In this document: positions 33,686-52,522 of the stretch, in pieces
How the letters are laid out: the number at the start of each line of letters is the position of its first letter
Numbering within the stretch: the stretch's first letter is position 1
The notes under the pieces: generated by a model
Databases searched by the model: none
Seen by the model: the letters and a program-made list of their open reading frames with translations, nothing else
Told to the model about the DNA's origin: nothing
Program-made: the position numbers and the translations under genes
IMG/VR virus record: IMGVR_UViG_3300017717_000004
Coordinates: 1-60,901 of that record
Direction: 5' to 3' (one strand)
Source: a virus
Taxonomy: Duplodnaviria > Caudoviricetes
Length of the DNA: 60,901 nt

Positions 33686-34498
33686 TTAAATCTCGCCATA
33701 GACTGTAAAATTTTCAAGTCTGTGACTTTTATTAACAAAATATTTTAAATAATTCTCTTCAGCTTTTGATACCTTTTCTCTACCTCTGTCATAGGCATCA
33801 TCAGAAACTTCATACAAACCAACACAACCTGTTCCTTTTTCAATAACAAGGAACTTCATTGGCTTTTGAAACATTGTTGAGTATATAAAGGCTTGACTAT
33901 CGTAATTATAAGCCTTGCTGCTATACTTAAAACCTCCAAGCGAACTTGATGTTTTTATATCAATCAAACAATCTTCTGTAACAATGTCTGCTTTACATTT
34001 CCATAAAACATCGCTATCTGTGTGTCCCATAGTTCCAAAATTTGGGACTTCATATTTAGATTTTTTGTTGTTTAAAAACTGCTTTACTGTTTCGTTCTTT
34101 AAAGAGGTGTCAACTAAAAGATTTAGGTCGTCCCATTCTTTTTTAAGAAAAATTAAACCACCTGCCTCAGCTGAAGCTTCTTTGTACTTATTAGTGTTTC
34201 TTGTAGAGGCTTCAATATAATTGTCGTTTTGAGTTTTTCCAAACATAATAAGTTCGTGAAAGGCTCTACCAAACATTAAATTAACACTATCTTCTCTTGG
34301 CTCAGAATACTGCGTTGGGTTGTTTATAAGCTGACTAATGTTAGAGTTTGATAAAAACTTACCACCATAGTCCCCATAATAATGCTCATCGCTTGAAAGC
34401 TTTGCCAAAACTTCTTCTCTATTTCTGTATGTCCAATGCTGTCCAGCTGTCATTCCATGTGGAGTTGAGTCCACTATGTAATCCCCTACTTTTTCCAT
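33686..34498 (-). CDS. RecE-like PD-(D/E)XK exonuclease
   Basis: FGRAFH, KCKADIV..DIKTS, YDSQAFIY. Confidence 0.8.
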   Translation of the reverse strand: MEKVGDYIVDSTPHGMTAGQHWTYRNREEVLAKLSSDEHYYGDYGGKFLSNSNISQLINNPTQYSEPREDSVNLMFGRAFHELIMFGKTQNDNYIEASTRNTNKYKEASAEAGGLIFLKKEWDDLNLLVDTSLKNETVKQFLNNKKSKYEVPNFGTMGHTDSDVLWKCKADIVTEDCLIDIKTSSSLGGFKYSSKAYNYDSQAFIYSTMFQKPMKFLVIEKGTGCVGLYEVSDDAYDRGREKVSKAEENYLKYFVNKSHRLENFTVYGEI

Positions 34499-38960: not shown

Positions 38961-40115
38961 TTATAATTTTTTAAGTTTGTTATCATCTTCATAAAACCTG
39001 TTACCGTCTATATCAGCATTAACATTGTCGATAATTGTATCTTCAATAGTATATAGTTCTTCTATATCGACGGTTTCCATATGTTTTTCATCTATAATGA
39101 AATCATCATACTCAACATCAACACTTGTATGACAGTTCATACAGTAACATACGTCATCATATTCTTCGTACCATACTTCGTGAGCACCACAGTTAGGACA
39201 CTCTGTTTGTAGTTTACTTGTCCCAATTGTGTCGTGTACATTAGATTTTTGTGATTGTGAATTATCCCAAGCATCTTTGCTGTATCCGTCATAGTAGAAA
39301 TCATCATAATAGTCATAACCACGCCCATATGCTCCATACATAGCTGGTGAATATGATATGCGATTCCCCTCGATTTCATATCTGATACCGTCTTGATTTA
39401 CTTTGTCAAATATTTCAATACACATTTGTTTTGTTGCATTTACTTCACTTATTACAATGTATTCATTGTCTGTGTGTGGGTCGTAATATCCACAAGACAT
39501 ATTAGCAACTTGAACTTTTGTTTTTTCTGCTATTTCTCCAACGTCAGTAATACCACCAGCACAACATTTACGATTGTATTTTTTTAGTATACTTTCTATT
39601 GACTCTTGAAAGCTTTCGTCTGATAGTTTAGTGCCAGAAATACTTGTCACAAAATCATCAATACCACGTCTATCACATTCCAACACAACGTTGCTGTCGG
39701 CAAAGAAACTGAAGTCAGCTTGACTTGAACCTTTGCAACCAACTTCTTCGTCTTTGAAAAAGACAGCTTTGAAGTTATCATAGTGTTGTAATAGTGATAG
39801 TGTGATATAAACGCCAACTTTGTCATCTCCACCAATACCATATCTTTTACAGTTTGTTCTGTCAATAGCAAGTAGCTTGTCGTCAATTTTGACAAGTTCG
39901 ATGTTGTTGTTGATGTCGTGAACAGTATCAATATGGCATACCATTGTTGGATATAAATCTGCGTCGCCTTTTGCAACATAGATGTTACCATAGTTGTCTG
40001 TTGTGAAGTCAAGTTTCATACTTCTGACTTTCTTCTTGATGAATGATTCCATTCTGTGGGACTTGTACGATTCTGTTTGGATTCGCATTGTGTCCAGTAA
40101 TAAATTGTTTTTCAT
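38961..40115 (-). CDS. M20/M28-family Zn metallopeptidase with C-terminal Zn ribbon
   Basis: CHIDT, GGDDK, DEEVG, CDRRG, GYYDPH; CPNC..CMNC. Confidence 0.85.
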   Translation of the reverse strand: MKNNLLLDTMRIQTESYKSHRMESFIKKKVRSMKLDFTTDNYGNIYVAKGDADLYPTMVCHIDTVHDINNNIELVKIDDKLLAIDRTNCKRYGIGGDDKVGVYITLSLLQHYDNFKAVFFKDEEVGCKGSSQADFSFFADSNVVLECDRRGIDDFVTSISGTKLSDESFQESIESILKKYNRKCCAGGITDVGEIAEKTKVQVANMSCGYYDPHTDNEYIVISEVNATKQMCIEIFDKVNQDGIRYEIEGNRISYSPAMYGAYGRGYDYYDDFYYDGYSKDAWDNSQSQKSNVHDTIGTSKLQTECPNCGAHEVWYEEYDDVCYCMNCHTSVDVEYDDFIIDEKHMETVDIEELYTIEDTIIDNVNADIDGNRFYEDDNKLKKL

Positions 40116-40138
40116 TGTGTGAGTTTATTAATTGTTGT

Positions 40139-40345
40139 CTACTCTTTAAGGTTTTCGACTGCCCCTATTTTGTTTTGTAGATTTAGTAAGGCTAACTTGT
40201 AACCATAGTTCTTAGCTAATTGCATTAGCAAAAAGTCATTACTACCGTTGTTTGCTTTTGCGAATTCATTTAGATATTCTTCTGTAGGTGTAGCTACTAT
40301 ACTCTTGTTCAGTTTTTCTAATTCTTTTCTGATATATTTTTCCAT
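40139..40345 (-). CDS. Hypothetical protein
   Basis: ORF in the early region. Confidence 0.6.
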   Translation of the reverse strand: MEKYIRKELEKLNKSIVATPTEEYLNEFAKANNGSNDFLLMQLAKNYGYKLALLNLQNKIGAVENLKE

Positions 40346-40349
40346 AATA

Positions 40350-40655
40350 TTATATTTTCATTGTGTGATAATATTGTATAAAGCTTGTTGTATATAGCGC
40401 ACCAATAAATAACCAAACAGGCGAAGTGAATAGTATTTGTGTTGTTGAAAAACTACTTATGATATGTGATAGTAGCGCCATACTACTAAACACAAACAAC
40501 CAATACATAAATGATATGAATACTTTCATATATGTGTTGAGGTTTAGATTTTCTGTTGTCGTACTATCAGCTATAGTGATTGTGATTGCACCGTTCCTAC
40601 TTTTTTTCTGAACGGTTGTGATGCCTGTAGGCAAAGTTTTAGTGATTGTTTTCAT
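40350..40655 (-). CDS. Hypothetical membrane protein with two TM helices
   Basis: Two hydrophobic segments in the C-terminal half. Confidence 0.6.
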   Translation of the reverse strand: MKTITKTLPTGITTVQKKSRNGAITITIADSTTTENLNLNTYMKVFISFMYWLFVFSSMALLSHIISSFSTTQILFTSPVWLFIGALYTTSFIQYYHTMKI

Positions 40656-40827
40656 GTGAATTGAATTTTAGATTATTGATTTTATTTTCAAGTCTTGTGA
40701 CTTGAGAGTCTGCAAAGTCAATACGACCTTGTAGAACCAACAGTTGATTTATCAACACATCTCTGTGTATAATCCAGTCAGCCTGTTCGTTTTCTTGTAG
40801 TATAATTGCTTGTGTATATGTAGCCAT
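40639..40827 (-). CDS. Hypothetical coiled-coil protein (start MATYTQ)
   Basis: ATG in an A-rich context just downstream of the tRNA; the longer track ORF runs through the tRNA. Confidence 0.6.
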   Translation of the reverse strand: MATYTQAIILQENEQADWIIHRDVLINQLLVLQGRIDFADSQVTRLENKINNLKFNSHENNH

Positions 40828-40841
40828 AATTATAAATTTTG

Positions 40842-40915
40842 TAGCGCCTGTAGGATTCGAACCTACATTTGCATCGTGAAAGGATGATGTCCTAAACCAA
40901 TTAGACGAAGGCGCC
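40842..40915 (-). tRNA. tRNA-Glu (anticodon TTC), CCA not encoded
   Basis: GGCGCCT/AGGCGCT acceptor stem, D loop with GG, anticodon loop CTTTCAC, T arm GTAGG-TTCGAAT-CCTAC. Confidence 0.92.
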
Positions 40916-41040
40916 AGATAGTGAGAAGTAAGGAAACTCACTTATATTAACTAAACATACACATTGACTTACTTTTTTATATGATTTGCGTCGCATCATT
41001 GGGTGTGTATTTCCCCTTTTGCCAGCAAGCGAAGAACAAA

Positions 41041-42069
41041 CCAAATGCCCGTATTCACGAGCATCGGTTGCCTGTATACTATTCAGGTCTTTCTTCAGCC
41101 AAACGGTCAACCACTTCTTCTACTGTGGATTCACGTTCTTCTGTTGCAACTAAGAAGCCTAACTGACTGAACACGCTATCAGGTGTGTTCAAGACTGGCT
41201 CTTCTGCTACTGCATCCATTTTCTTTTCAAACAACCACTCTGGAATTGTTACTTGTACCAATTTCTTTTTGGCATCAACAATGCTGAGTTGTGATTGTGA
41301 TTTAGGCATATACACTCTATCAAATAATTTAGTGTTACCTTGTTTGCAGTTCGATAAAACAATTGCTTTACCTGAAGCGTGAATTTCCACTAATGTGGCT
41401 TTGAATGTTACTGTTGTTGAATTTGAATTTTTCATTTTATGTATATTTAAAAATTAATACCCAACGAATACAAATGCTTACTTGATATAACCGAGGCCAG
41501 ACTTCAATTGTTTTCAAATATTTTCATGAAAGGCTTTAGCCGCTTCGAAAAAATTTTAAAAGAATTTAAGCTGGGTTGAAAACTTGCCAAGCTTCGATAA
41601 AATTTTTAATCAAAAATTTTTCAAGGTTGAGCAACCGAAGGGGATACCAAGTAAGCATTTGTAAATTTGTATGGGATTTTTAATACATAAAATAAAATTC
41701 CAACGGCAGTAATATTCAATTCCATAATAGAAATTCAGGCATTCAAGTGAAGTGATTGTTCGGACTGCATACAAATCTATCTATCTATCTATTTATTTAT
41801 TTGATTGTGTGTATGGCTTAACCAATCACAGCTCTATCTGATGAACCAAAAAGGAATACCAACAAGTGACAATAACAGAGTTGTCGATTAATAAAATGGG
41901 TGTAGTAGTATATGCAAGTCCTGACAACAGCTGATGACTTTCATACAGTTATGGTTATTAGTGACATAAGGTTGTGAAACCAACAGTTGAAGTGGTGACA
42001 TTATGTTTAGGTGAAAGACAAGGATAGGATAGGTTATCGAATGATTGTGAATACGAGCATTACCATTGG
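41041..42069 (+). repeat. Giant imperfect inverted repeat (arms about 41041-41488 and 41644-42069)
   Basis: Collinear helices, e.g. 41469-41484/41648-41663 (16 bp perfect), 41401-41419/41701-41719, 41286-41297/41823-41834, 41207-41222/41893-41908, 41044-41060/42045-42061. Confidence 0.9.
41079..41435 (-). CDS. First gene of the early arm: small beta-barrel-like protein with acidic tail
   Basis: GKAIVL..YMPKSQ..VTIPEWL motif and E-rich C-terminus. Confidence 0.75.
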   Translation of the reverse strand: MKNSNSTTVTFKATLVEIHASGKAIVLSNCKQGNTKLFDRVYMPKSQSQLSIVDAKKKLVQVTIPEWLFEKKMDAVAEEPVLNTPDSVFSQLGFLVATEERESTVEEVVDRLAEERPE

Positions 42070-42103
42070 GATGAAGGGGGTGGGTATAGGAAGGGGTGCC
42101 AAA

Positions 42104-42143
42104 GGATACCGTAGGTATCCGCCAAAGCGAGAGAGGCGAAGCC
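42104..42143 (+). other. GNA-triloop minihairpins
   Basis: GGATACC-GTA-GGTATCC at 42104-42120 and GGC-GAA-GCC at 42135-42143. Confidence 0.7.
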
Positions 42144-42358
42144 GAGCGAGCGAGATAGATAGTATTTGTAAATTGACATAGGTATAGAAAAAAGCTAAAA
42201 AAAATAGAGTAATGAACGGATAGAAACAACCCCCATATAATATATAAATCAATTTACATAACGATAGTGTAGGTAAAAAATATAGATTACCTAAAACCTC
42301 AGCATATGCGTGGCGTATTTTTGAAAACAGTTAAAGTAATATAAATAGGTCATCATTA

Positions 42359-42759
42359 GTTTACATTATTGCGCCACATATTTACATCGGATAATTAAGT
42401 ATATTTGTAAAAAATAAAGTTATGCCAAACAAAAAGAAAAACGATTCAATACCTCAGCCAACATACAAGAATATAAAAATGTTTGCTAATATTAGAAACC
42501 AAAATATGGGGTCGAACCAACCAGTCACAAAAAACGACTCAATTGTATATAGACAAGGTTTTGATTTTGGGTTAAAGCATCAAGGCGGCATGAATCCTCC
42601 ACCAGCAAATGAAAACTTAATGTTCCGAGGGGGAAGATGGGAAGGTCAAAACACTGAAAATCCAATAAAGAACGCTACAAGACCAAACATCATTACAAGA
42701 GGTATGAATGCCATAAAAGACTTCTTTAACGATTAGTTGTTTACATTTTTGCGCCACAT
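42359..42759 (+). repeat. 21-bp direct repeat GTTTACATT(A/T)TTGCGCCACAT at 42359-42379 and 42739-42759
   Basis: One mismatch; each copy precedes a TATATTTG motif (42400 and 42772). Confidence 0.85.
42422..42736 (+). CDS. Hypothetical protein
   Basis: 104-aa ORF downstream of the promoter motif at 42400-42407. Confidence 0.6.
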   Translation: MPNKKKNDSIPQPTYKNIKMFANIRNQNMGSNQPVTKNDSIVYRQGFDFGLKHQGGMNPPPANENLMFRGGRWEGQNTENPIKNATRPNIITRGMNAIKDFFND

Positions 42760-42782
42760 TGTTTTTTTTTGTATATTTGTAT

Positions 42783-42878
42783 ATGAAAAAGATAAAATGG
42801 TCTGTCGTATTGGTTTGGGTGAGTATATTTACAATCTCTTATTTAATATGGTCACCTATTTTAAAATTGATTTTCTAA
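42783..42878 (+). CDS. Possible 31-aa membrane peptide (MKKIKWSVVLVWVSIF...)
   Basis: Read by hand; follows the promoter motif at 42772. Confidence 0.35.
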   Translation: MKKIKWSVVLVWVSIFTISYLIWSPILKLIF

Positions 42879-43011
42879 TGTGGAAAACAAACTATAGTAT
42901 AAATGTCGAAATTGACAACAAAGTTGGCGCAGGAAATTATTGGACTCAAACATCAACCTGGGACAAGGAATTTAATACAAAAATTACAGCAAAAGATTGA
43001 TGAACTTGAGC

Positions 43012-43116
43012 GACAAGCAAGTGACAAGCCAAAGACACGCAAAACAAGCTGATTTACAGGTGATATACGTCAGTTTTTTAGCTTATTAAAAAAAAAGAGG
43101 CTAAAATCGACATGCC
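43012..43116 (+). repeat. Second iteron-like array upstream of groEL
   Basis: GACAAGCAAGT-GACAAGCCAAA-GACACGCAAAA (11-bp period) plus AAATCGACATGC at 43104; units match the reverse complement of 32291-32336. Confidence 0.7.
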
Positions 43117-43168
43117 TATATAAAAAGAAGAAAAGAAAAGAATAAAAATTTAATATAATAATACATAA

Positions 43169-44764
43169 ATGATTGAAAAAAACATAGTTTTTGGTTCTGA
43201 TGGCAGGAAAAAACTAAAAAAAGGCATTGATACCCTTGCAGAGGCTGTTTCCTCTACTTTAGGTGCTTCAGGAAAGACAGTAATTATTGAAGACCAGTTT
43301 GGAAACCCTCATATTACAAAAGATGGGGTAACAGTAGCTAATAGTATATTGCTTTCAGACCCAGTAGAGAACCTCGGCTGTAGCATTTTAAAGCAAGCTT
43401 CACAAAAAACAGCGTCGGAAGCAGGAGATGGTACTACAACTTCCTGTGTTTTAGCAAAATCCATGATAGATAAGTGTTTTGACCAAATAAATAGCGTTGA
43501 AAATGTAACTCAAGCTAAAGAAGGTATAGAACATGCCGCTAGATTGGTGGTAAAAACACTCGAAAAAATGAAAACTGAAGTGACAGACGAAAAATTACTT
43601 CAAGTTTCTACTATTTCGGCTAACGGAGATGAGTATATTGGTAAGATGATAGCAGATGCCTATATAAAAGTAGGTAAAGATGGTGTTGTAACAATGGACG
43701 AGTCCACCACAGGCGAGGATTATACCGAAATAACTAATGGAACCAAAATACAAAGAGGGTATGGTACTCCATTTAGCATAAACAACCTTAGAAATAAGTC
43801 AGTAGAGTTTCAAAACCCCTTAATTGTCATTAGTGACATGAAAATTGACATGCACGAACGACTTCATTTTGCGTTTGAGGCCTCAATAAAGCAAAAAAAG
43901 CCACTTTTAATCATTTCAGACCTAGACGACAGGGTAAAATTGTTTATAGCACAAAATATAAACAAGAAAAACCTTACGGCTAACTTTTTAACACCTGAAG
44001 GTATAGGTATAAAAAGATTTGAACTACTTGAAGACCTTTGTATGATGACTGGAGCTAGAATGATTTCAGAAATGTCAGGAGATTCTTCTCAAAATATTGA
44101 TGCATCTTATCTTGGCACCTGTAGACAGATGATTTCAAACTCAACAGAAACCGTTTTGGTGTTTGATGAGGCGGAAAACAAGAAAAAAGATGAGGTTATT
44201 GAGTGGTTAAATAAAGAAATACGATTAAGTGCCAATAAAACCGATAAGTGGCACTTGCAAGACAGATTATCTAAATTAGCTGGTGGTGTAGCAACCATAA
44301 AACTTGCTGGTAACTCAGAAGTTGAGCTGAAAGAGAAGAAAGATAGGGTAGATGATTCCATCCATGCAACAAAAGCAGCCTTAGAAGAAGGTATTGTTGC
44401 TGGTGGAGGGGTAGCCTTATTAGACGTACATAGAAAAATTTCCAAAAAATCTCCGAGAAGCAACTCTGATTCTTTTGTTTGGGGTTATAATATATTAATT
44501 GAGTCTCTGCCGAGTGCCTGGGAAAAAATCATAGAAAACTCAGGGCAATCAACAGAACACAAGTATATTGTAAGTAAAATGGAAAACAGAACCATCAAAC
44601 ATGGATTAGATGTTAAAACTGGTAAGTTTGGAAATATGATAAGAATGGGGATTATTGACCCCTTTAAAGTAACTAAAAATGCTGTTTTAAACTCAGCATC
44701 AGTTGCATCAATAATACTGACGACATCATGTGTCGTCTCAAACAAGAGAATAAATAAAAATTAA
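43169..44764 (+). CDS. groL: Chaperonin GroEL (Cpn60)
   Basis: ITKDGVTVA, AGDGTTT, KLAGGVA, GIVAGGG, GIIDP; no GGM tail. Confidence 0.97.
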   Translation: MIEKNIVFGSDGRKKLKKGIDTLAEAVSSTLGASGKTVIIEDQFGNPHITKDGVTVANSILLSDPVENLGCSILKQASQKTASEAGDGTTTSCVLAKSMIDKCFDQINSVENVTQAKEGIEHAARLVVKTLEKMKTEVTDEKLLQVSTISANGDEYIGKMIADAYIKVGKDGVVTMDESTTGEDYTEITNGTKIQRGYGTPFSINNLRNKSVEFQNPLIVISDMKIDMHERLHFAFEASIKQKKPLLIISDLDDRVKLFIAQNINKKNLTANFLTPEGIGIKRFELLEDLCMMTGARMISEMSGDSSQNIDASYLGTCRQMISNSTETVLVFDEAENKKKDEVIEWLNKEIRLSANKTDKWHLQDRLSKLAGGVATIKLAGNSEVELKEKKDRVDDSIHATKAALEEGIVAGGGVALLDVHRKISKKSPRSNSDSFVWGYNILIESLPSAWEKIIENSGQSTEHKYIVSKMENRTIKHGLDVKTGKFGNMIRMGIIDPFKVTKNAVLNSASVASIILTTSCVVSNKRINKN

Positions 44765-44768
44765 AATT

Positions 44769-44924
44769 ATGGTTATATCGAATGAAATATTTGAATCTTA
44801 TAGACTTCAAAAAAGGAAAGAAACAAAAGCAGCAAACCTTTTGATTACAAATGGTTATACTGTATTAGACGAAAAAGGAAAAGTCCTAACTAAACAAAAA
44901 TTAGGCGTTGAAGGCAGTTGGTAG
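44769..44924 (+). CDS. Hypothetical 51-aa protein between groEL and groES
   Basis: Read by hand (MVISNEIFESYR...). Confidence 0.5.
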   Translation: MVISNEIFESYRLQKRKETKAANLLITNGYTVLDEKGKVLTKQKLGVEGSW

Positions 44925-45186
44925 TTTTATTATTGTAAAAGATGATGAGGTGGTTCAAAAAAATGAACTGGGACTCATTATAACTGAAAAATCAGATAAT
45001 AACATAAGATATGTTATAGGTCAGGTAGTAACTGTTGGCGAAGATGTCAAAGAGGTTAAGCCTGGTCAATTTGTTTACTTTGACAAGATATCAGGCTCTG
45101 AGCTGAGGATTAAAGGAACTAAGCTTAAGGCTATTAGAGAAAAAGATGTCGTTGTAACAATGGATGATGTTAACACCGCTATTTGA
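44908..45186 (+). CDS. groS: Co-chaperonin GroES (Cpn10)
   Basis: Mobile loop ELGLII, GQVVTVG..VKPGQFVYF, IREKDVV; TTG start; next to groEL. Confidence 0.85.
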   Translation: MKAVGSFIIVKDDEVVQKNELGLIITEKSDNNIRYVIGQVVTVGEDVKEVKPGQFVYFDKISGSELRIKGTKLKAIREKDVVVTMDDVNTAI

Positions 45187-45913
45187 TTATGAATCACATA
45201 GAATAATAATGGAAACCCCTTTTATTTTTAAAGGGGATGATTATCTGTATTTTCCAGAAGGAGTTGATTTTTACAGTTTATATAGAACAAAAAGAAAGAT
45301 AAATTCTTTTTCAGAACTTGAATATATTGCAGAGAAGTTTATTCATTTAAACCCTGAATTTAAACTATCTCTAATGACCTCTTTATTTAAAATTCTATCA
45401 GACAGAGACTCTGGACACATAATTAGAACATATACCTCATTAAGGGTTGAGGCTATGGTCACAAGAGTTTACAATAAGAAAAAGGTGCCCTATTGTAAGA
45501 GAAAAAGAAAAATAATATTCAACCCCTCTAAAATGATTGATAGAAAAACTAAAATGAAAATAGTTGGCTCTATTATTGGGACAAAAAAAAGACCTACTAG
45601 CTCAGAGATTGACCAAGTTATTGAAGAGATGTGGCTTGAAAAAGAAAAGATTACACTAATAAAAGTAGCAAAAAAACTTCACACATCAAGATATCTTGTT
45701 TCTTGGTACTTTAATGAAGAAACAAAATCATCAATCAAAAAAGCTAATCTAGATATTAAAAACGAAAATTTAATAAGTAGAGCGATAGAAGCTATTGATT
45801 TTTTAACAGACAAAGGCAACGCACTGAAGATGAGAGAGTTAAAAAAAATAACCTCTATAAGAAACTATTCTCTATTAAAAAAGGCAGTTTTTATGTATCA
45901 GAATGAAGATTAG
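45164..45913 (+). CDS. Hypothetical protein, possible C-terminal HTH
   Basis: ITLIKVAKKLHTSRYLVSWY. Confidence 0.55.
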   Translation: MMLTPLFDYESHRIIMETPFIFKGDDYLYFPEGVDFYSLYRTKRKINSFSELEYIAEKFIHLNPEFKLSLMTSLFKILSDRDSGHIIRTYTSLRVEAMVTRVYNKKKVPYCKRKRKIIFNPSKMIDRKTKMKIVGSIIGTKKRPTSSEIDQVIEEMWLEKEKITLIKVAKKLHTSRYLVSWYFNEETKSSIKKANLDIKNENLISRAIEAIDFLTDKGNALKMRELKKITSIRNYSLLKKAVFMYQNED

Positions 45914-46367
45914 ATGCGTTCATTTTTTCAATAACCTTTTTATATATCTTATCAGCATAAGATGTCTTTTTGAATATAGGGTTAGAACGAGGCTCTTCTG
46001 ATATAGGCTCGTCATTCATAAGTTTTTTATAAGTAAGCAAACATATTGTTTTTGCTTTATGTGTAAGCTCCCATATTTTTGCTCTTCCATACTTCTCACC
46101 TCCAGGTCTCCATTCTTTTATTAAATCTTTTTTTACCATTTCATAAAACCTTCTTTTATCCCAAGACATTGTGTTTCCGTAATAATTAAAATCTTCTTTT
46201 CTGAAATAAGGTAGGTCATACAAATAAAGCAACATATCTAACTCCATTGAACTTATGTTATATTTTCTTTTTATGTAATATTTCACAACCCTCCAATACT
46301 TTAAAAAATTATATTGTCTTTCTCTAGGTTGTCTTTTAATAATTTTTCTTTTATAAGATTTTATCAT
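45891..46367 (-). CDS. Probable winged-helix DNA-binding protein (start MIKSY)
   Basis: YNISSMELDMLLYLY..YEMVKKDLIKEW..WELTHKAK resembles a MarR-like wHTH; lone minus-strand gene in this arm. Confidence 0.55.
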   Translation of the reverse strand: MIKSYKRKIIKRQPRERQYNFLKYWRVVKYYIKRKYNISSMELDMLLYLYDLPYFRKEDFNYYGNTMSWDKRRFYEMVKKDLIKEWRPGGEKYGRAKIWELTHKAKTICLLTYKKLMNDEPISEEPRSNPIFKKTSYADKIYKKVIEKMNASNLHSDT

Positions 46368-46385
46368 AGATTTAATTATTTGGGT

Positions 46386-46418
46386 CAAAAATACGAAAAA
46401 CATTTTTTGGTATCTTTG
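46386..46418. promoter_or_regulatory. Divergent -7 promoter pair
   Basis: TATTTTTG on minus (46386-46393) and TATCTTTG on plus (46411-46418). Confidence 0.6.
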
Positions 46419-46442
46419 CCTTATAATTTAAAAAACATCATT

Positions 46443-47231
46443 ATGCCAACTAAGTTGCCAAAAAGACTAAGACCATACACTGCAGGTGTAAACAAGCCCT
46501 TCGGAAAAATGAAAGGAAGGGGAATTCAATATAGATATTTATCAAGTCAATTTACTCCATATGAAGGAAGCAAACTTGTTAACAGACCAAAAGGGGGAGG
46601 AGTAGTCTCTTCTAATGCTTTTGCTAGTGGATATCAATCTTATAACAGCGTAAGTGGAAACACTCCAGGCTCTCAATACGATATTAAAAACCCAATGAAA
46701 GGTCCTGAGGTTAGAATGAGTCAAAGAAGTGGTGGGAGCTTTAGCGGAGTTGGTGGTAACAGACCTTATCCAGGAAACAGAGCCTCTCTCAAGGCTGCGG
46801 ATAGAGGAGCTAAAGCGACAGCAAAAGCCTATGACGTAATGGAAAAGGGATATGCTAAAGCAAAATTCCTTGACACTAAGGGAGATATAAAGGCAAGAAA
46901 CATTCTTTCTAAAATCGACGAGAACACGAGCGAAAAGAAGAAAGCTCGATTAATGAAAAGAGCTCAGAAAGTAGACAAGAGGCTTGATAAGAGAGCACAA
47001 AGAGTCTTAGATAGAAAAATGAATAAGGCTGGAAAAGACAAATACAGAAAAAAAATTGGAGCTGCTGGAACTGATATTCAGGGGATGGCTAATTTCATGT
47101 ATGGTAAATTTTTAGAGCGTTCGGAAAAGCTTACTAGCAAAATGAACGCACCAAAAACATATATGCCTAGAACAAGCAAAGCAACAACTACAAACAGTAG
47201 ACGAAGAAAAACTACGTTTGAAAGAGATTAA
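46443..47231 (+). CDS. Basic K/R/G-rich protein (start MPTKLP)
   Basis: ATG 32 nt after the promoter motif. Confidence 0.6.
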   Translation: MPTKLPKRLRPYTAGVNKPFGKMKGRGIQYRYLSSQFTPYEGSKLVNRPKGGGVVSSNAFASGYQSYNSVSGNTPGSQYDIKNPMKGPEVRMSQRSGGSFSGVGGNRPYPGNRASLKAADRGAKATAKAYDVMEKGYAKAKFLDTKGDIKARNILSKIDENTSEKKKARLMKRAQKVDKRLDKRAQRVLDRKMNKAGKDKYRKKIGAAGTDIQGMANFMYGKFLERSEKLTSKMNAPKTYMPRTSKATTTNSRRRKTTFERD

Positions 47232-47233
47232 TC

Positions 47234-47398
47234 ATGGCAAAAGAAAAAAAGAAAAAAGGTAATAAGATTTGCCCAGCTGGTATAGCTTGGGCAAAAAGAA
47301 CCTTTGACACATATCCTTCTGCATATGCAAATATGGCTGCAAGTAAATATTGTAAAGACCCTAATTACGCTAAAGGAGCTAAGAAAAAGAAAAAATAA
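47234..47398 (+). CDS. Small basic protein with YPSAYAN motif
   Basis: Read by hand, 54 aa. Confidence 0.7.
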   Translation: MAKEKKKKGNKICPAGIAWAKRTFDTYPSAYANMAASKYCKDPNYAKGAKKKKK

Positions 47399-47517
47399 TG
47401 GACGCAAAAAAATTGAAAGAAATATCAAGTCAGTTAAAGAAAGCATCTGCTATGCACAAAGCTCAAGCAGGTAAGATTGATAGATTAATAAAATCTATGT
47501 CAAAGAAAAAGAAATAA
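47398..47517 (+). CDS. Small basic protein (LKKASAMHKAQA)
   Basis: Read by hand, 39 aa, TAATG coupling. Confidence 0.6.
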   Translation: MDAKKLKEISSQLKKASAMHKAQAGKIDRLIKSMSKKKK

Positions 47518-47521
47518 AAAA

Positions 47522-47866
47522 ATGAACAAAATACCACCATCTATTCTTCAGTCAAATAGCACAATAAAGCAGAAGATTAAAAATCAAAAGGCTACTGAAA
47601 AGTTTAAAAATAAAACTATAGATATTCATTTTTCAGATACTAATTACGATAACACTATTGGAGCTAGTAAATTAAAAATGAAAATCTCAAAAAGGGGAAG
47701 AGGTACTGAAAGATTTAAGGAGGTTATGCAGCAGCCAGATGGAAGCTACATGCTATACACTATGAACAATAGTGGGGTTGCAAGAGAAAAACAAATATCA
47801 GAAAGAAGAGCCAAGGGCTTTATAAGAAGAATGCAAAAAGCTCAAAAAAGATTACAAAATAAATAA
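47522..47866 (+). CDS. Basic hypothetical protein
   Basis: ORF in operon. Confidence 0.6.
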   Translation: MNKIPPSILQSNSTIKQKIKNQKATEKFKNKTIDIHFSDTNYDNTIGASKLKMKISKRGRGTERFKEVMQQPDGSYMLYTMNNSGVAREKQISERRAKGFIRRMQKAQKRLQNK

Positions 47867-47874
47867 TTCAAATT

Positions 47875-48108
47875 ATGTGGAAATTAACAAAACAATATTT
47901 TAAAGACATGTGGACTGCTTTATGGAGCAAAACAACGATAGATGAAAAAGCTATAGCCACTGTAAAAGAAATTAAAAAAAGATATAAGCTCACAGCTCAA
48001 GAACTTGCAGATGTAGCAAATGCTATAAAAGAAGTTGGTAATCAGCTAGGTGATATTGACGACGCTGTGAAAGGAAAAGCTAGAAAAGGTAGAAAAGCTA
48101 AAAAATAA
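47875..48108 (+). CDS. Hypothetical protein
   Basis: ORF in operon. Confidence 0.6.
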   Translation: MWKLTKQYFKDMWTALWSKTTIDEKAIATVKEIKKRYKLTAQELADVANAIKEVGNQLGDIDDAVKGKARKGRKAKK

Positions 48109-48111
48109 AAT

Positions 48112-48417
48112 ATGCCAGATTACGATAAAATAGGTTTTAAGAATACAGCTATAGATAAGCTCAACACGTTCAATAGGTTTAATAAGAATAAGATTCCGTT
48201 GAAAAGAAAGAAAACAGAAGAAGATAAACAAAGAGAACAAGCTATTACTTCTTATGCTTCTACTTTAACCGCTAAGAATACTGGACCTACTCTTTTGGGT
48301 GATGGCTCCGCTATGACATATGCCGCTAATGTAGTAGGCACAGGTGTAAAAGCGCTATTTAAACTGGCTGCAAAGAATGTAGCAAAAAAAGGAGTTGTTA
48401 AAAAAATAAGTCAATAG
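48112..48417 (+). CDS. Hypothetical protein
   Basis: ORF in operon. Confidence 0.55.
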   Translation: MPDYDKIGFKNTAIDKLNTFNRFNKNKIPLKRKKTEEDKQREQAITSYASTLTAKNTGPTLLGDGSAMTYAANVVGTGVKALFKLAAKNVAKKGVVKKISQ

Positions 48418-48671
48418 TGGGTGAGCTTAAAAAATGGCGTGACGAAAAATGGGTTAGAATTGGCACAGATGGTTCTATAAAAGGAGCATGTGGCACAAGC
48501 AAGAATAAAAAAAATCCAGATAGATGTTTGCCTTTAAAAAAGGCTCAGTCAATGACTAAAGCTGAAAGAGCTAAAACAGCAAGAAAAAAGAAAAGAGCTG
48601 GAAGAAAAGGAAAAACTGTAGTTGCAAACACAAAAGCAGGTAGAGTAACTAAAAAATATACAAAAAGATAA
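48417..48671 (+). CDS. Small basic protein (LKKWRDEKWV..CG..CLP)
   Basis: GTG start coupled to the upstream stop. Confidence 0.65.
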   Translation: MGELKKWRDEKWVRIGTDGSIKGACGTSKNKKNPDRCLPLKKAQSMTKAERAKTARKKKRAGRKGKTVVANTKAGRVTKKYTKR

Positions 48672-48673
48672 TT

Positions 48674-49234
48674 ATGGCAAATATTAGTACATATATACTC
48701 GATACAGGTATAGATATAAATGACAAGGTAATTGGCACAGACGGAACAACAGGAGAAGACCAGGGTAAAACTAAAAACTTCTCTGTATCTGCACTTAGGT
48801 CTTTTATTGGCTCAGGAGGGAACTTTGTTACTAAAAAGATAACAGTAAGTACAGCGCAATTAAGAACAATCCACACAGGTCCTGTTGTTCTAATAGACCT
48901 TACGGATAATGAAGTTGCCGATGTTGTATCAGTTATTATAAAAACAAGCAATCAAACTTCTCAAAATAAATTAAATTTCCCAGACGCATTAACAATAGAA
49001 CCAGCTATATCTAACAACACCTCTTATAACTACCCTATAGCCGCTGCTTCATTAAATAACACATCAAATATTGTTTACAAGCCCATAGTTGCGGCTGGAG
49101 GTACAGACCCTGGCCCTATTGTAGGTGATGTTAGATTTAAAAGCACCAGTTCATCAAATGCGCCTACAGAAACAGGCACCGCAACTACAGAAGTAACTAT
49201 TTGGATTACTTATCAAATAATAGATATATCGTAA
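48674..49234 (+). CDS. Probable virion accessory/decoration protein
   Basis: N-terminus paralogous to 53861..54562 (MANISTY..DKVIGTD..TKNF). Confidence 0.55.
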   Translation: MANISTYILDTGIDINDKVIGTDGTTGEDQGKTKNFSVSALRSFIGSGGNFVTKKITVSTAQLRTIHTGPVVLIDLTDNEVADVVSVIIKTSNQTSQNKLNFPDALTIEPAISNNTSYNYPIAAASLNNTSNIVYKPIVAAGGTDPGPIVGDVRFKSTSSSNAPTETGTATTEVTIWITYQIIDIS

Positions 49235-49524
49235 TGGCAGACAAAAGTAAAATGAAATGCAATGTTGTTAGAGCAAGCGACAGAGCAGGAAAAAAGAAAA
49301 TGGTTAAAGCTTGTGCTAATGGAAAAGAAAAGCTAATTCATTTTGGAGCAAAAGGCTATGGTCATAATTATTCAGCCGCAGCAAGAAAGTCTTTTAAAGC
49401 AAGGCATAAATGCTCATCAGCTACAAATAAATTAACGGCAAGATATTGGGCTTGTAAAAAGTTATGGGCTGGTAAGGGCGGCTCTACAAAGTCTTCACCA
49501 AGTTCAAAAAGAGGAAAATATTAA
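49234..49524 (+). CDS. Small basic protein (HFGAKG..RKSFKARHKC..ARYWAC)
   Basis: Start MADKS with TAATG coupling. Confidence 0.7.
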   Translation: MADKSKMKCNVVRASDRAGKKKMVKACANGKEKLIHFGAKGYGHNYSAAARKSFKARHKCSSATNKLTARYWACKKLWAGKGGSTKSSPSSKRGKY

Positions 49525-49527
49525 GTT

Positions 49528-49983
49528 ATGGCCAAGGAAAAGAAGAAAATAATAAACACCGACGTTTTGTTTATGCCAAAAATTAAGAGCGATAAACAAA
49601 AAAGACAGAACATTAGAGATATAAGAAAAAATAGAAGACAAAATCTAAGGAATGCTCAATCAAGAGAAGAAAAGGAATCTATAAGACAAGAGGCAAGGGG
49701 TTTAATACGACAACAAAGAGGTGGTAAAACTCAAGCTGGAGAAATAATACAAGATGTTCAAGGTGCTGCATCACAGGTAAATAAACTAAGAAAGAATATA
49801 CAAAATACAACACTTGGACAAGTAATTCCTTTAGGAGCGAGTATTATTAAAAACGCTCAAAGTTTAAATGTAAAGAAATTGACATCAAACGCTAAAGATG
49901 TTGTGAGTCTTTTAACTGGAAAAAACAAAAAGGGAGCAAGTGTGATAGCCAGAAACAGCTCTGGATGTAACTGTGACTGTTAG
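49528..49983 (+). CDS. Basic hypothetical protein ending CNCDC
   Basis: ORF in operon. Confidence 0.6.
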   Translation: MAKEKKKIINTDVLFMPKIKSDKQKRQNIRDIRKNRRQNLRNAQSREEKESIRQEARGLIRQQRGGKTQAGEIIQDVQGAASQVNKLRKNIQNTTLGQVIPLGASIIKNAQSLNVKKLTSNAKDVVSLLTGKNKKGASVIARNSSGCNCDC

Positions 49984-50017
49984 TAAAAGGTATTTAGATT
50001 TTTATTAAATTTGAAAA

Positions 50018-50140
50018 ATGAAGTCAAAAAAGAAAAAGCTTACTGCAAAACAAATGAAAATAGCTAAATTAGCTCCGCCTTTTGATAAGATAACAGGTGC
50101 TGATTTTAAGAAATTAGCAAAACTAAAAAAGAAAAAATAA
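50018..50140 (+). CDS. Small basic protein (KITGADFKKL)
   Basis: Read by hand, 40 aa, after TAAATTTG at 50006. Confidence 0.6.
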   Translation: MKSKKKKLTAKQMKIAKLAPPFDKITGADFKKLAKLKKKK

Positions 50141-50155
50141 TTTAAAAAAATAATT

Positions 50156-50248
50156 ATGCCATACGGAAGCGCAACATACAGTAAAAAGAAATCTAAGCCA
50201 ATGGCTAAGAAGAAAAAAGTAGTTAAGAAGAAAAAAAAGAAAAAATAA
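50156..50248 (+). CDS. Poly-lysine peptide, 30 aa
   Basis: Read by hand (MPYGSATYSKKKSKPMAKKKKVVKKKKKKK). Confidence 0.5.
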   Translation: MPYGSATYSKKKSKPMAKKKKVVKKKKKKK

Positions 50249-50250
50249 TA

Positions 50251-50403
50251 ATGGATAGGGGTCTAGGAGATACTGTAGAGAGATTAACTAAAGCAACTGG
50301 AATAAAAAAGGTTGCAGACACTATATCTAAGAAAATGGGAAAACCTTGTGGGTGTGGAGAAAGAAGAGACACCCTAAACAGAATGTTCCCATACGGTAAA
50401 TAA
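50251..50403 (+). CDS. Small protein with GLGDTV..CGC..RRDTLN motif
   Basis: Read by hand, 50 aa. Confidence 0.65.
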   Translation: MDRGLGDTVERLTKATGIKKVADTISKKMGKPCGCGERRDTLNRMFPYGK

Positions 50404-50405
50404 CT

Positions 50406-50651
50406 ATGTTAAGTAAAACAGCAAGATATTACCGAGACAATCCTAAAGCAAGAATAAAGCATAGGAAGTCAAGCGCAAAAGCTCAAAAGAAAAAAGAAGC
50501 AGTGCGCAAAAGAGTTGAATGCAATCTATTTAATAAAAAAAACAAGAAATCGAAAAAAGGAGACAAATTAGATTGCTCCCACAAAGGTAGTCGTTTGGTA
50601 TTAGAAAGACAAAAGGCTAACAGAGCTAGGGGCGGCGGTAAGAAAAAGTAA
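50406..50651 (+). CDS. Small basic protein with a degenerate HNH-like motif
   Basis: KGDKLDCSH..LVLE..ANRARG. Confidence 0.5.
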   Translation: MLSKTARYYRDNPKARIKHRKSSAKAQKKKEAVRKRVECNLFNKKNKKSKKGDKLDCSHKGSRLVLERQKANRARGGGKKK

Positions 50652-50652
50652 A

Positions 50653-51813: not shown

Positions 51814-52106
51814 TGAGCGAAAAAGCACCTCAAATATCAGAAGACACTAAAGTAACCTTAGATTTTAAAACCATAGGAATGATAGTCGGTTTTGTTGTAA
51901 CTTTATCAGGGATGTGGTATACATTGCAGGCCGACATAGCTGAAGCTATGACAAAGCCTGAACCTGTAATAGACAGAGTTGAGTATGATTTAAAAGATGA
52001 GTTGATACGCCAAACAATAATGGACACTCAAGAAGATGTTGAAATGATTCTAGAAAAACTAGATAAGCTCGACGAAAGAATATATGAGATGCAAAAAGGA
52101 AGATGA
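51813..52106 (+). CDS. Single-TM coiled-coil protein
   Basis: TIGMIVGFVVTLSGMWYTL followed by heptad repeats. Confidence 0.6.
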   Translation: MSEKAPQISEDTKVTLDFKTIGMIVGFVVTLSGMWYTLQADIAEAMTKPEPVIDRVEYDLKDELIRQTIMDTQEDVEMILEKLDKLDERIYEMQKGR

Positions 52107-52522
52107 TGAAATATTTACTATTATTATTAAGTTTTTCTTCTTTTGCACAAACACAATATGAGGTAGTACCAAAGAAATACTGGATAACAGATTCAGATTT
52201 TGAAGAAAAAATAAAAGAAAATAGCCAATATGACGATTCTGACTCAGGCATAGTTGTTATTGAGTTCTGGGCTGAGTTTAACCAGGACAATTGTTTTAGA
52301 GAGTGGAGTGGTTTAAAAGGTGTTACATATCACAGGGTTGATGTTGCTTTAGCGCCACTCGCTAAAAAAAAGTACAGGATAAGAATGGCTCCAACTGTTT
52401 TAGTTTTTAAAGATGGTATAAAGGAGTTGTCTTACAAAGCGGGGTTGGATTTAGAATTTCCTTCAAGTATTTCTGAAATACAATCAGATATAAATAGTTT
52501 AAAAAAAGAAAATAGATTTTGA
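52103..52522 (+). CDS. Secreted thioredoxin-fold protein lacking CxxC
   Basis: Signal peptide; VVIEFWAEFN and IRMAPTVLVFKDG. Confidence 0.7.
   Translation: MMKYLLLLLSFSSFAQTQYEVVPKKYWITDSDFEEKIKENSQYDDSDSGIVVIEFWAEFNQDNCFREWSGLKGVTYHRVDVALAPLAKKKYRIRMAPTVLVFKDGIKELSYKAGLDLEFPSSISEIQSDINSLKKENRF

What the first reader, a model, noticed from the sequence alone, without database searches (positions are those of the whole stretch)
41041..42069. About 1-kb strand-specific fold-back in which a non-coding shadow copy pairs with the entire first early gene
Seen: 41644-42069 is a degenerate reverse complement of 41041-41488, which covers all of gene 41079..41435 and both flanks. Helices stay collinear over about 440 bp: 41469-41484/41648-41663, 41434-41444/41683-41693, 41401-41419/41701-41719, 41286-41297/41823-41834, 41245-41256/41862-41873, 41207-41222/41893-41908 and 41044-41060/42045-42061. 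The right arm has lost the ATG and carries many small indels, so it does not code. Among the helices I aligned by hand, about 12 substitutions give G-T pairs on the + strand and 2 give A-C; helix choice may bias this count. Inference: neutral decay of an inverted duplication should not favour one strand. This suggests selection for folding of the + strand, which is the template strand of the gene rather than its mRNA. The element lies where the early and late arms diverge, a plausible site for the genome end. It may be a device for expressing or protecting a gene while the DNA is single-stranded during entry or replication. I know of no described equivalent of this size in a tailed dsDNA phage.
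Basis: partly seen in the sequence, partly recalled or inferred. Interest (0 to 1): 0.93.

Follow-up and report, generated by a model that had tools for sequence, protein, structure and literature searches.

The report
Gene-sized one-strand fold-back in phage
A group of uncultured marine phages keeps a non-coding mirror copy of its first early gene, so that one particular DNA strand can fold back on the whole gene next to what looks like the genome end, which hints at an undescribed use of single-stranded DNA in a tailed phage.

Summary
Window 41589-42061 is a non-coding inverted copy (P) of 41044-41536, which holds gene G (41079-41435, minus strand) with its upstream region and terminator. 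The arms match at 324 of 401 aligned positions; the score is 323 against 45+-9 in shuffles.

The same fold-back is present in all 4 clades of relatives that carry G. The arms co-evolve. Within a genome G-P alignment scores are 293-381; across clades they are 59-128. An independent MAFFT/RNAalifold analysis gives 301 pairs, 106 with changes on both sides, against 52.9+-4.4 in shuffles.

Transition mismatches strongly favour G-T wobble on the window + strand, which is the template strand of G: 23:9 here and up to 50:4 in relatives. Base composition does not account for this.

Two new facts place it at a probable genome end. Five family contigs end within 45 nt of a conserved motif at 42032-42051. 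A polar octamer, GATTGTGA, occurs 14:0 on the + strand here and 90:1 in relatives, and it is densest just left of that motif. This resembles the Chi arrays of some phages.

Best reading, about 0.4: a single-stranded-DNA fold-back of the 3'-ending strand that keeps G transcribable. The function is not shown. Notes from this scan report two look-alike cases on other DNA.

The parts
41044..41536 (+). G arm of the fold-back. On the + strand it is the template strand of gene G plus about 100 nt upstream of its ATG and 35 nt past its stop.
   Evidence: Local arm alignment, converted from locus coordinates 1965-2457 of the reverse-complemented stretch 40000-43500; global alignment.
41079..41435 (-). 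Gene G, 118 aa, the first gene of the leftward block. It is a real coding gene under purifying selection. The model shows a small beta-barrel, a helix and a disordered acidic tail. Function unknown.
   Evidence: ORF; 6 homologues; dN/dS about 0.2; no Pfam family and one weak PHROG hit; AF2 pLDDT 69.6; no fold match with E <= 0.001 and best Z 4.3.
41044..41065 (-). Terminator-like hairpin directly after G. It forms the outermost helix of the G arm.
   Evidence: Terminator scan. The stem sequence differs between clades while the hairpin is kept, as seen in the sequences printed.
41537..41588 (+). Apical loop between the arms.
   Evidence: Gap between the aligned arms. The region is 87-96% identical between the window and clade B, while the P arm is 42-76% identical.
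41589..42061 (+). P arm: a non-coding inverted copy of the whole G transcription unit.
   Evidence: stops in all frames and 26 indels. P arms of all clades share derived features that G lacks, so the duplication is single and old.
41662..41669 (+). TAAATTTG, which matches the TAnnTTTG -7 box of Bacteroidota promoters (consensus recalled). It lies at the inner end of the P arm and points outward. In the fold-back it sits on the surrogate non-template strand about 45-50 nt before the ATG of G.
   Evidence: An exact box at the equivalent place in 4 of 4 clades (TAAATTTG, TAGGTTTG, TATATTTG), and none at the mirrored place of the G arm. It is partly unpaired in the DNA fold of 4 of 4 genomes. Caveat: the motif occurs 110 times in the window.
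42032..42051 (+). Conserved motif GGTTATCGAATGATTGTGAA at the outer end of the P arm; a probable genome end or terminal-repeat boundary.
   Evidence: Contigs of L019/L023 and L020/L034 start at 42036 and 42033. The L007 contig ends at 42039. The L041 contig ends 37 nt to the left, and L003 about 45 nt to the right. The motif is also kept in relatives that lack G.
42052..42400 (+). Conserved non-coding block: a G tract, hairpin 42104-42120 with a GTA loop, GCGAG repeats and an A-rich stretch. It is shared with relatives that lack G.
   Evidence: Alignment of 6 loci. The stem is GGATACC/GGTATCC here and GATTTCC/GGAAATC in L013 and L017. It is 86-98% identical to clade B.
41293..41300 (+). A copy of the polar octamer GATTGTGA inside the G arm, antisense to the conserved SQSQ codons.
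42043..42050 (+). A copy of the polar octamer inside the end motif.

Best explanation
Shown: a conserved fold-back about 1 kb long, specific to one strand. On the window + strand the whole transcription unit of gene G (upstream region, coding sequence, terminator) pairs with a non-coding mirror copy, P. P diverges in sequence at about the neutral rate, yet it stays about 80% complementary to the G of its own genome. Its departures are mostly G-T wobble on that strand.

Inferred (most likely mechanism): the + strand is the strand that ends 3' at a genome end lying at about 42032-42040. When that end is unwound or resected 5' to 3', the + strand is left single and folds back. The agent would be a host AddAB/RecBCD-type enzyme that meets the polar, Chi-like octamers, or a phage exonuclease. 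P then serves as a stand-in non-template strand. It supplies the TAnnTTTG -7 box that the G arm lacks, so the first early gene could be transcribed from single-stranded DNA, as at Frpo/ssi-type promoters but covering the whole gene. The paired 3' end could also cap or prime the end.

The strand-specific maintenance is shown. The genome end, the Chi-like role, the single-stranded state and transcription from it are all inferred.
For: 1. The fold-back is found in 11 of 11 loci examined that carry G. Local scores are 113-381, against 41-77 in shuffles.
2. The arms co-evolve. Within-genome G-P scores are 293-381. Cross-clade G-P scores are 59-128, P-P 44-169 and G-G 279-323.
3. On an alignment not fitted to the structure, RNAalifold finds 301 pairs. 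89.5% of cells are paired, against 80.3+-0.5 in shuffles (0 of 500 reach it). 106 pairs change on both sides, against 52.9+-4.4 (0 of 500) and 23-39 when partners are slid.
4. Wobble on the template strand against wobble on the sense strand: WIN 23:9, L007 25:10, L013 31:7, L011 50:4, L010 49:4, L009 39:4, L003 39:1. These exceed the composition-based expectation, with p from 0.023 down to 1e-8.
5. Four-fold degenerate sites of 20 long ORFs show no strand skew (G 7.2%, C 7.5%), so a general mutation bias does not explain the asymmetry.
6. That strand folds better in 7 of 7 genomes with RNA parameters (-381 to -468 against -311 to -345 kcal/mol). It also folds better in 4 of 4 with DNA parameters.
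7. An exact -7 box lies on P only, in 4 of 4 clades, in a partly open stretch.
8. Contig ends cluster at 42032-42051.
9. The octamer GATTGTGA is 14:0 on the + strand here, with 1.3 and 1.0 expected, and 90:1 in 18 related loci. It is spaced 747, 1462, 2787, 3690, 5059... nt leftward from 42040, and there is none in the 17.9 kb to the right.
10. This is the pattern reported for Chi in phages LLS and MD8, where the active orientation is on the strand whose 3' end is at the right end (PMC12315714, passages read).
11. Relatives without G keep the end motif and the octamers but have no fold-back. This ties the fold-back to G itself.
Against: - Nothing here shows single-stranded DNA, and tailed phages inject duplex DNA.
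- The termini were not mapped. Most family contigs, including the window, run across the motif. Fourteen virome runs hold all sampled 31-mers of 40700-42500. So the site is at best a terminal-repeat boundary or concatemer junction, and assembly breaks caused by the repeat itself are not excluded.
- TAnnTTTG occurs 110 times in the window on both strands. The box may simply be an ordinary duplex promoter that reads rightward through P.
- Each hairpin still has 40-53 transversion mismatches and 21-31 indels.
- Recent single changes in P within clade A often break pairs: 18 turn a Watson-Crick pair into a transversion mismatch, 7 into template-strand wobble and 2 into A-C.
- In the window itself the asymmetry is modest (p = 0.023).
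- Whether the octamer is the host's Chi could not be tested. The Chi of Bacteroides fragilis AddAB was unknown in 2010 (PMC2887965, passage).
- The fold of G gives no functional clue.
Confidence: 0.4

Rival explanations
1. RNA hairpin. A + strand transcript starts downstream of G, runs antisense through G and on through P, and folds into a long imperfect duplex. This duplex would control G (antisense masking, RNase III processing) or act as a structured RNA.
For: Tolerance of G-U wobble and compensatory changes is the classical signature of RNA structure. With RNA parameters the + strand is favoured by 70-150 kcal/mol in 7 of 7 genomes. RNA-library contigs cross the terminator of G (40939-41196, 40982-41250), which an antisense or read-through RNA would also do (no strand information).
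Against: No exact TAnnTTTG box pointing that way is conserved downstream of G in the 4 clades. The only conserved box lies between the arms, so its RNA would contain P alone. Rfam finds nothing except the tRNA. The polar octamer and the contig ends are DNA-level features on the same strand, and an RNA reading does not explain them.
Confidence: 0.2
2. By-product without a function. An old inverted duplication of the G unit is kept similar by gene conversion or template switching between the arms, for example when the + strand transiently folds during replication. G-T pairs persist because they escape correction.
For: Within clade A, 12 of 18 columns that vary in both arms show the same split of genomes, at dS of only 0.02-0.17. 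This is fast for point-by-point compensation. The phage encodes RecE-like and SbcD-like nucleases. One RNA-library contig joins 41296 to 41831 on opposite strands at the homologous spot, as a recombinant between the arms would.
Against: About 470 nt of useless DNA has been kept in all 4 clades across saturated divergence (dS 1.2-2.4). Arm identity is about the same everywhere (0.795-0.82 in full-length arms), with no long identical tracts as recent conversion would leave. P-specific differences are conserved across clades. Conversion alone gives no strand asymmetry. Even this reading needs the + strand to fold in vivo.
Confidence: 0.15
3. P is simply the promoter and leader of the rightward genes. 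In duplex DNA the conserved box drives a non-coding RNA through P toward 42422 and groEL, and pairing with G is irrelevant.
For: The box is conserved and points outward in 4 of 4 clades. Further rightward boxes lie at 42316 and 42400. P (41831-42045) occurs in one RNA-library contig.
Against: This does not explain why P tracks the G of its own genome or why the mismatches are strand-biased. Relatives without G run the same rightward genes without any such leader copy.
Confidence: 0.1
4. Silent-cassette or invertible switch. P is a donor for patchy conversion into G, which would diversify it, or recombination between the arms flips the central segment.
For: The opposite-strand joint 41296/41831 in run X15 is the junction an inversion between the arms would give. 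The arms covary in patches.
Against: G is under purifying selection (dN/dS about 0.2), and its dS equals that of neighbouring genes (0.60-0.71 against 0.63-0.77). P is full of frameshifts, so conversion tracts would mostly be lethal. The joint is one contig at depth 2.2 and may be a template-switch artefact of cDNA synthesis. Neither idea predicts the wobble bias.
Confidence: 0.05

Closest known systems
Frpo / ssi single-stranded-DNA promoters of conjugative plasmid leading regions, and from recall the minus-strand origin of filamentous phages and the sso of rolling-circle plasmids
   Same: A single DNA strand folds so that a stem mimics duplex promoter DNA, which lets host RNA polymerase read genes on the strand that is single-stranded. 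The element is strand-specific and sits before the first genes to act (PMC11541004, passages read).
   Different: Frpo elements were sought in intergenic regions of 50-350 bp and cover only the promoter. Here each arm is about 470-490 nt and covers the promoter, the whole gene and the terminator. One arm is the gene itself. The host is a duplex-DNA tailed phage with no known single-stranded stage. The box is the Bacteroidota -7 type, not -35/-10.
Chi-rich lambdoid phages LLS and MD8 (Zheng et al. 2025, PMC12315714)
   Same: An octamer is highly over-represented, almost entirely on the strand whose 3' end is at the right genome end, and concentrated near that end: 20 of 23 sites in LLS and 32 of 32 in MD8. 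Here the counts are 14 of 14 in the window and 90 of 91 in relatives.
   Different: There the motif is the known Chi of the host. Here the host and its Chi are unknown. No fold-back over a gene is mentioned in the passages I read.
Hairpin ends in podovirus replication and packaging: the T7 concatemer 'hairpin' end (Chung, Nardone and Hinkle 1990) and N4 3'-end hairpin priming
   Same: A fold-back of one strand next to the terminal repeat or at the 3' end of a linear phage genome. For T7 I saw only the title, in a reference list. For N4 I read one sentence in PMC3896407.
   Different: From recall, those involve short palindromes, have no gene in the stem and carry no co-evolving pseudo-copy. 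Relatives here that lack G keep the end motif without a fold-back, so end processing alone does not need it.
Hairpin-RNA genes formed by inverted duplication of a target gene in plants and flies (recalled, not checked)
   Same: An inverted, decaying copy of a gene that pairs with gene sequence over hundreds of bases.
   Different: Those hairpins are made of two non-coding copies apart from the target and work through RNA interference. Here one arm is the working gene, and the favoured strand is antisense to its mRNA.

Membership tests
Frpo/ssi-type single-stranded-DNA promoter | The DNA strand that carries it is single-stranded in the cell when it acts | not testable with these tools
   No probing data are available. 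Only indirect hints of an adjacent DNA end and a polar octamer on the same strand.
Frpo/ssi-type single-stranded-DNA promoter | An intrastrand stem that rebuilds duplex-like promoter elements in front of the gene | tested here: inconclusive
   An exact TAnnTTTG lies on the P strand about 45-50 nt before the position paired with the ATG, in 4 of 4 clades. It is flanked by the best-kept helix (41469-41488/41644-41663, 95%) and is partly unpaired. The motif is common, 110 in the window, and no -33 element was identified.
Frpo/ssi-type single-stranded-DNA promoter | The folding strand is the template strand of the downstream gene | tested here: met
   G is on the - strand. The wobble bias and the energies favour the + strand in 7 of 7 genomes.
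Frpo/ssi-type single-stranded-DNA promoter | A short intergenic element (50-350 bp searched in PMC11541004) upstream of the gene | tested here: not met
   The arms are about 470-490 nt, and one arm is the gene itself with its terminator.
Frpo/ssi-type single-stranded-DNA promoter | Sequence similarity to the known Frpo/ssi elements | not tested
   No reference sequences were on hand. Rfam has no match in 40500-43200 apart from the tRNA.
Chi-array phage genome end (LLS/MD8 type) | A short motif far above chance, nearly all in one orientation, on the strand ending 3' at one genome end | tested here: met
   GATTGTGA is 14 on + and 0 on -, with 1.3 and 1.0 expected. The 11-mer with up to 1 mismatch gives 11 matches against 3.06+-1.55, all on +. 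The count is 90:1 in 18 related loci.
Chi-array phage genome end (LLS/MD8 type) | Clustering toward that genome end | tested here: inconclusive
   Spacing widens leftward from 42040, and no copy lies in 42052-60070. In 7 relatives no + strand copy lies to the right of the end motif. The end itself is inferred from contig ends only.
Chi-array phage genome end (LLS/MD8 type) | The motif is the Chi of the host's RecBCD/AddAB | not testable with these tools
Structured or antisense RNA hairpin | One transcript contains both arms | tested here: inconclusive
   RNA-library contigs carry no strand information, and none spans both arms. No conserved promoter was found for such an RNA.
Structured or antisense RNA hairpin | Pairs kept by compensatory and G-U changes | tested here: met

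The most novel reading that the evidence does not exclude
The host's own end-resecting helicase-nuclease switches on the phage's first gene. The enzyme enters at the right genome end and meets the Chi-like octamer at the foot of the hairpin. It then spares the + strand, which folds into a gene-sized quasi-duplex. The mirror copy in this duplex supplies the promoter, so gene G is made from resected DNA and the end is capped. G would be a small barrel protein with an acidic tail, perhaps an anti-nuclease or a binder of single-stranded DNA. This would be a nuclease-triggered single-stranded-DNA gene cassette in a tailed phage. Notes from this scan suggest that other phage groups may have it too.
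Probability: 0.18. Interest if true: 0.95.

Novelty: new variant of a known kind. Interest (0 to 1): 0.85.

Why it matters
If one strand of a tailed, duplex-DNA phage folds back on a whole gene, single-stranded DNA would have a programmed role at the start of infection, or at genome ends, in this kind of virus. So far that role is known for conjugative plasmids (Frpo) and single-stranded-DNA phages.

The finding also gives a directly testable candidate for the unknown Chi sequence of marine Flavobacteriia-type hosts. It offers a rare case in which a protein-coding gene and a non-coding partner co-evolve base by base. This constrains how fast the gene can change.

The full-text searches I ran turned up no description of a gene-sized, strand-specific fold-back of this sort. 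Supplements were not available.

Tried and rejected
**Searches for relatives and known families**
- Cultured relatives: blastn of 40900-42450 and tblastn of G against 50,697 phage records found nothing.
- The nearest cultured GroEL phages (Elemovirus, 38.8% identity) are not syntenic.
- Rfam finds only the tRNA.
I used the search for related loci instead.

**Virion RNA polymerase idea (N4- or crAss-like)**
- The 2249-aa ORF has no PHROG, Pfam or PDB sequence match.
- It has no DxDxD motif (motif recalled).
- I dropped the idea.

**Mutation-bias null**
- I considered strand-biased deamination of a transcribed leader.
- Four-fold sites show no strand skew, and composition-based expectations are exceeded. 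It is rejected as the sole cause.

**Hot-spot reading**
- From I first thought the arms evolve faster than their flanks.
- The dS of G (0.60-0.71) equals that of the neighbouring leftward genes (0.63-0.77), so I withdrew it.
- The correct statement is that P diverges at about the neutral rate, while the loop and the right-hand non-coding block are conserved.

**Other ideas set aside**
- Independent duplications in each clade: rejected, because P arms share derived features such as the ATCTATCT insertion and the outer motif.
- Diversity-generating retroelement: the mismatch spectrum is not adenine-specific. I did not search for a reverse transcriptase.
- A fold-back as a general feature of this phage group: relatives with GroEL 81-82% identical lack G and have no long inverted repeat (scores 21-27, against 21+-2 in shuffles).
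- Other targets of P in the genome: none.

**RNA libraries**
- Three runs cover 40939-41388, the G arm.
- Only X15 covers part of P.
- No run covers the loop.
- These are contigs without strand information, and missing cover is not evidence either way.
- The X15 joint 41296/41831 is a single contig at depth 2.2.

**Fold of G**
- Foldseek found no match with E <= 0.001.
- VIA-align gave a best Z of 4.3, to Sm/SH3/OB-like small barrels, which is below a trustworthy level.

**Literature**
- I saw passages only of PMC11541004, PMC12315714, PMC2887965, PMC4925675 and PMC3896407.
- For Chung et al. 1990 I saw only the title, in a reference list.
- I read no supplements.
Full report
**What is there.** The window is a complete 60,901-bp IMG/VR virus record. 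Structural and packaging genes lie on the + strand at 1-25.6 kb. A leftward block of replication and recombination genes runs from 41435 down to about 26 kb. A rightward block starts at 42422. Gene G (41079-41435, - strand, 118 aa) is the first gene of the leftward block. A terminator-like hairpin (41044-41065) and a tRNA-Glu follow it.

The stretch 41644-42069 is an imperfect reverse complement of 41041-41488. It has 324 matches, 77 mismatches and many small gaps, with a score of 323 against 45.3+-9.0 in 200 shuffles. The helices are collinear. Local alignment extends the arms to 41044-41536 and 41589-42061. The copy, P, does not code. It has stops in all frames and 26 indels, and its identity to G is the same at all three codon positions. 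P has no other partner in the genome.

**Relatives.** L008 is the same contig as L003 and was dropped. L005 and L006 are the window's own type. L012 has the same arms as L011.

Together with the window these loci form four clades: C (the window), B (L004, L007), A (L003, L009-L012) and D (L013). G proteins are 53-61% identical between the deep clades. All 11 loci tested carry the inverted copy upstream of G. Local scores are 113-381, against 41-77 in shuffles, and the lowest is the truncated L006. Arm identity is 0.795-0.885. P is non-coding in all four clades, with 21-31 indels and stops in every frame.

P arms share derived features that G lacks. These are an ATCTATCT-type insertion and the outer GGATAGG..GGTTATC..ATGATTGTGAA stretch. 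The duplication is therefore single and old, not repeated.

**Co-evolution.** Without interaction between the arms, a G arm should be as close to another clade's P as to its own. It is not. Within-genome G-P scores are 293-381, cross-clade G-P 59-128, cross-clade P-P 44-169 and cross-clade G-G 279-323.

Between the window and clade B the P arm is only 42-76% identical in 50-nt bins. The loop is 92-96% identical and the non-coding block to the right is 86-98%. The dS of G (0.60-0.71) equals that of the neighbouring leftward genes (0.63-0.77), and dN/dS is about 0.2. So G is an ordinary constrained gene. P drifts at roughly the neutral rate, yet both lineages keep 81-82% complementarity.

A MAFFT alignment of seven whole hairpins was not fitted to any structure. 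On it RNAalifold predicts the giant hairpin, with 301 pairs. On that structure 89.5% of cells pair, against 80.3+-0.5 in shuffles. 106 pairs show changes on both sides, against 52.9+-4.4. In both cases 0 of 500 shuffles reach the observed value, and slid controls give 23-39.

Even inside clade A (dS 0.02-0.17), 12 of the 18 columns that vary in both arms split the genomes the same way. Ten of these are Watson-Crick in all four genomes.

**Strand specificity.** The ratio of template-strand wobble to sense-strand wobble among transition mismatches is as follows:
- WIN 23:9
- L007 25:10
- L013 31:7
- L009 39:4
- L003 39:1
- L010 49:4
- L011 50:4

The share expected from the base composition of the arms is 0.53-0.61. 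The observed share is 0.71-0.98, with p from 0.023 (window) down to 1e-8. Four-fold sites of 20 long ORFs show no strand skew. The window + strand is the more stable fold in 7 of 7 genomes with RNA parameters. It is also the more stable in 4 of 4 with DNA parameters and in the consensus fold (-188.8 against -123.4).

Results against a tight structure must be stated as well. Each hairpin keeps 40-53 transversion mismatches. Recent single changes of P in clade A turn a Watson-Crick pair into a transversion mismatch 18 times, into template-strand wobble 7 times and into A-C twice.

**Promoter geometry.** An exact TAnnTTTG (consensus recalled for Bacteroidota) lies at the inner end of P and points outward, in 4 of 4 clades. 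The two free letters differ between clades. The mirrored place in the G arm has none, and only a one-mismatch box lies 21-22 nt before the ATG. In the fold-back this box lies on the strand that would stand in for the non-template strand of G, about 45-50 nt before the ATG. It sits in a small internal loop in all four DNA folds. The motif is frequent, 110 in the window, so this is suggestive only.

**A probable genome end.** Relatives with GroEL 76-82% identical lack G and have no long inverted repeat. They keep the outer roughly 60 nt of "P" and the following non-coding block. That block includes a hairpin whose stem differs between clades while its GTA/GCA loop is kept.

Contigs of three such phages begin at that motif or 37 nt before it and run rightward. 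Two G-bearing contigs coming from the left stop in it or about 45 nt past its start. That makes 5 of about 20 family contigs ending within 45 nt of one site. Many contigs bridge the site, and 14 virome runs hold all sampled words of 40700-42500. A terminal-repeat boundary or concatemer junction therefore fits better than a cohesive end. Assembly breaks caused by the repeat cannot be excluded.

**A polar octamer.** The motif contains GATTGTGA. This octamer occurs 14 times on the + strand and never on the - strand, with about 1.3 and 1.0 expected. It does so in both gene-orientation blocks. The 11-mer with up to one mismatch gives 11 matches against 3.06+-1.55 in shuffles, all on +. In 18 related loci the count is 90 to 1.

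Copies lie 747, 1462, 2787, 3690, 5059, 7284... nt to the left of 42040, and none lies in the 17.9 kb to its right. Seven relatives show the same one-sidedness. This is the pattern described for Chi in phages LLS (20 of 23 sites) and MD8 (32 of 32). There the active orientation is on the strand whose 3' end is at the end that RecBCD enters (PMC12315714, passages). Bacteroides has AddAB, and its Chi was unknown in 2010 (PMC2887965, passage).

**Reading.** Three independent features single out the same strand: the wobble bias, the polar octamer, and the end that would leave this strand as a 3' tail. I therefore favour a single-stranded-DNA fold-back formed when the right end is unwound or resected. 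P would act as a stand-in non-template strand that carries the promoter box for G. This resembles Frpo (PMC11541004, passages) but covers the whole gene. Relatives without G keep the end and the octamers without a fold-back, so the fold-back serves G rather than end processing as such.

The main rivals are an RNA hairpin, a conversion by-product, and a plain rightward leader. The RNA-library contigs available have no strand information and decide nothing. The fold of G is a small beta-barrel with a helix and an acidic tail, with no reliable match.

**Earlier notes of this scan.** Notes on the same genome gave three leads: the promoter idea, the GNA-loop hairpins, and a guess that G binds single-stranded DNA. 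Two followed-up notes on other genomes describe a non-coding mirror copy of the first early gene or operon. One has a template-strand bias (a soil phage) and one a transcript-strand bias (marine T7-like phages). I did not test those. They suggest that the arrangement recurs.

**Verdict.** The strand-specific maintenance is well supported. The genome end, the Chi-like role and the single-stranded mechanism are inferred and testable.

Noticed in passing
window + strand: 8809, 18900, 21969, 25941, 30054, 32143, 34756, 36981, 38350, 39253, 40578, 41293, 42043, 60071: The octamer GATTGTGA (wider form RTGATTGTGAW) occurs 14 times on the + strand and never on the - strand. The count is 90:1 in 18 related loci. 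It is densest just left of 42040 and absent for 17.9 kb to the right. It is a candidate Chi-like or other polar signal.
   Followed up: partly
window 42032-42051; L019:1, L020:1, L041:1-53 (motif strand, reverse of the stored locus), L007 and L003 contig starts: Contigs from different samples and both directions end at or near the conserved motif GGTTATCGAATGATTGTGAA. This is likely a physical genome end or terminal-repeat boundary.
   Followed up: partly
window 42052-42400; L016:3860-4250, L018:3914-4300, L017:690-1050, L013 (reverse) upstream of its P arm: A non-coding block of about 350 nt is conserved even in relatives without G. It holds a G tract, a hairpin 42104-42120 whose stem changes in a compensatory way while the loop stays GTA/GCA, GCGAG repeats, AAAAAAGCTAAAA and an ACCCCC stretch.
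   Followed up: partly
L009:6410-6560, and the same place in L003, L010, L011: Clade A has six to eight tandem copies of a unit of about 19 nt (ACGGAATCGTTGCGGCAGT-like) between the terminator of G and the tRNA. They are iteron-like. The window has none there.
   Followed up: no
L016:2047-3838, L018:2242-3890: Relatives without G have a different first leftward gene (262 aa) in the same slot. Beside it lies about 550 nt of GC-richer non-coding DNA full of short local hairpins.
   Followed up: no
window 41296-41329 joined to 41831-42045: One contig of an oligo-dT RNA library (run X15, depth 2.2) joins the G arm and the P arm on opposite strands at the homologous position. It could be an inversion or recombinant isomer, or a cDNA template switch between G mRNA and a P transcript.
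   Followed up: no
window 26870-27967 and 33686-34498 (- strand): The phage encodes an SbcD/Mre11-like repair exonuclease and a RecE-like exonuclease VIII. Such enzymes resect ends or cut hairpins.
   Followed up: no
window 18898-25647 (+ strand): A 2249-aa ORF at the end of the structural block has no PHROG, Pfam or PDB sequence match. Its start codon sits in a copy of the polar 11-mer.
   Followed up: partly
window 40841-40915 and 43169-44764: A tRNA-Glu (TTC) follows G on the same strand. A phage GroEL follows the rightward leader, and its nearest cultured relatives are Flavobacterium Elemovirus phages at 38.8% identity.
   Followed up: partly
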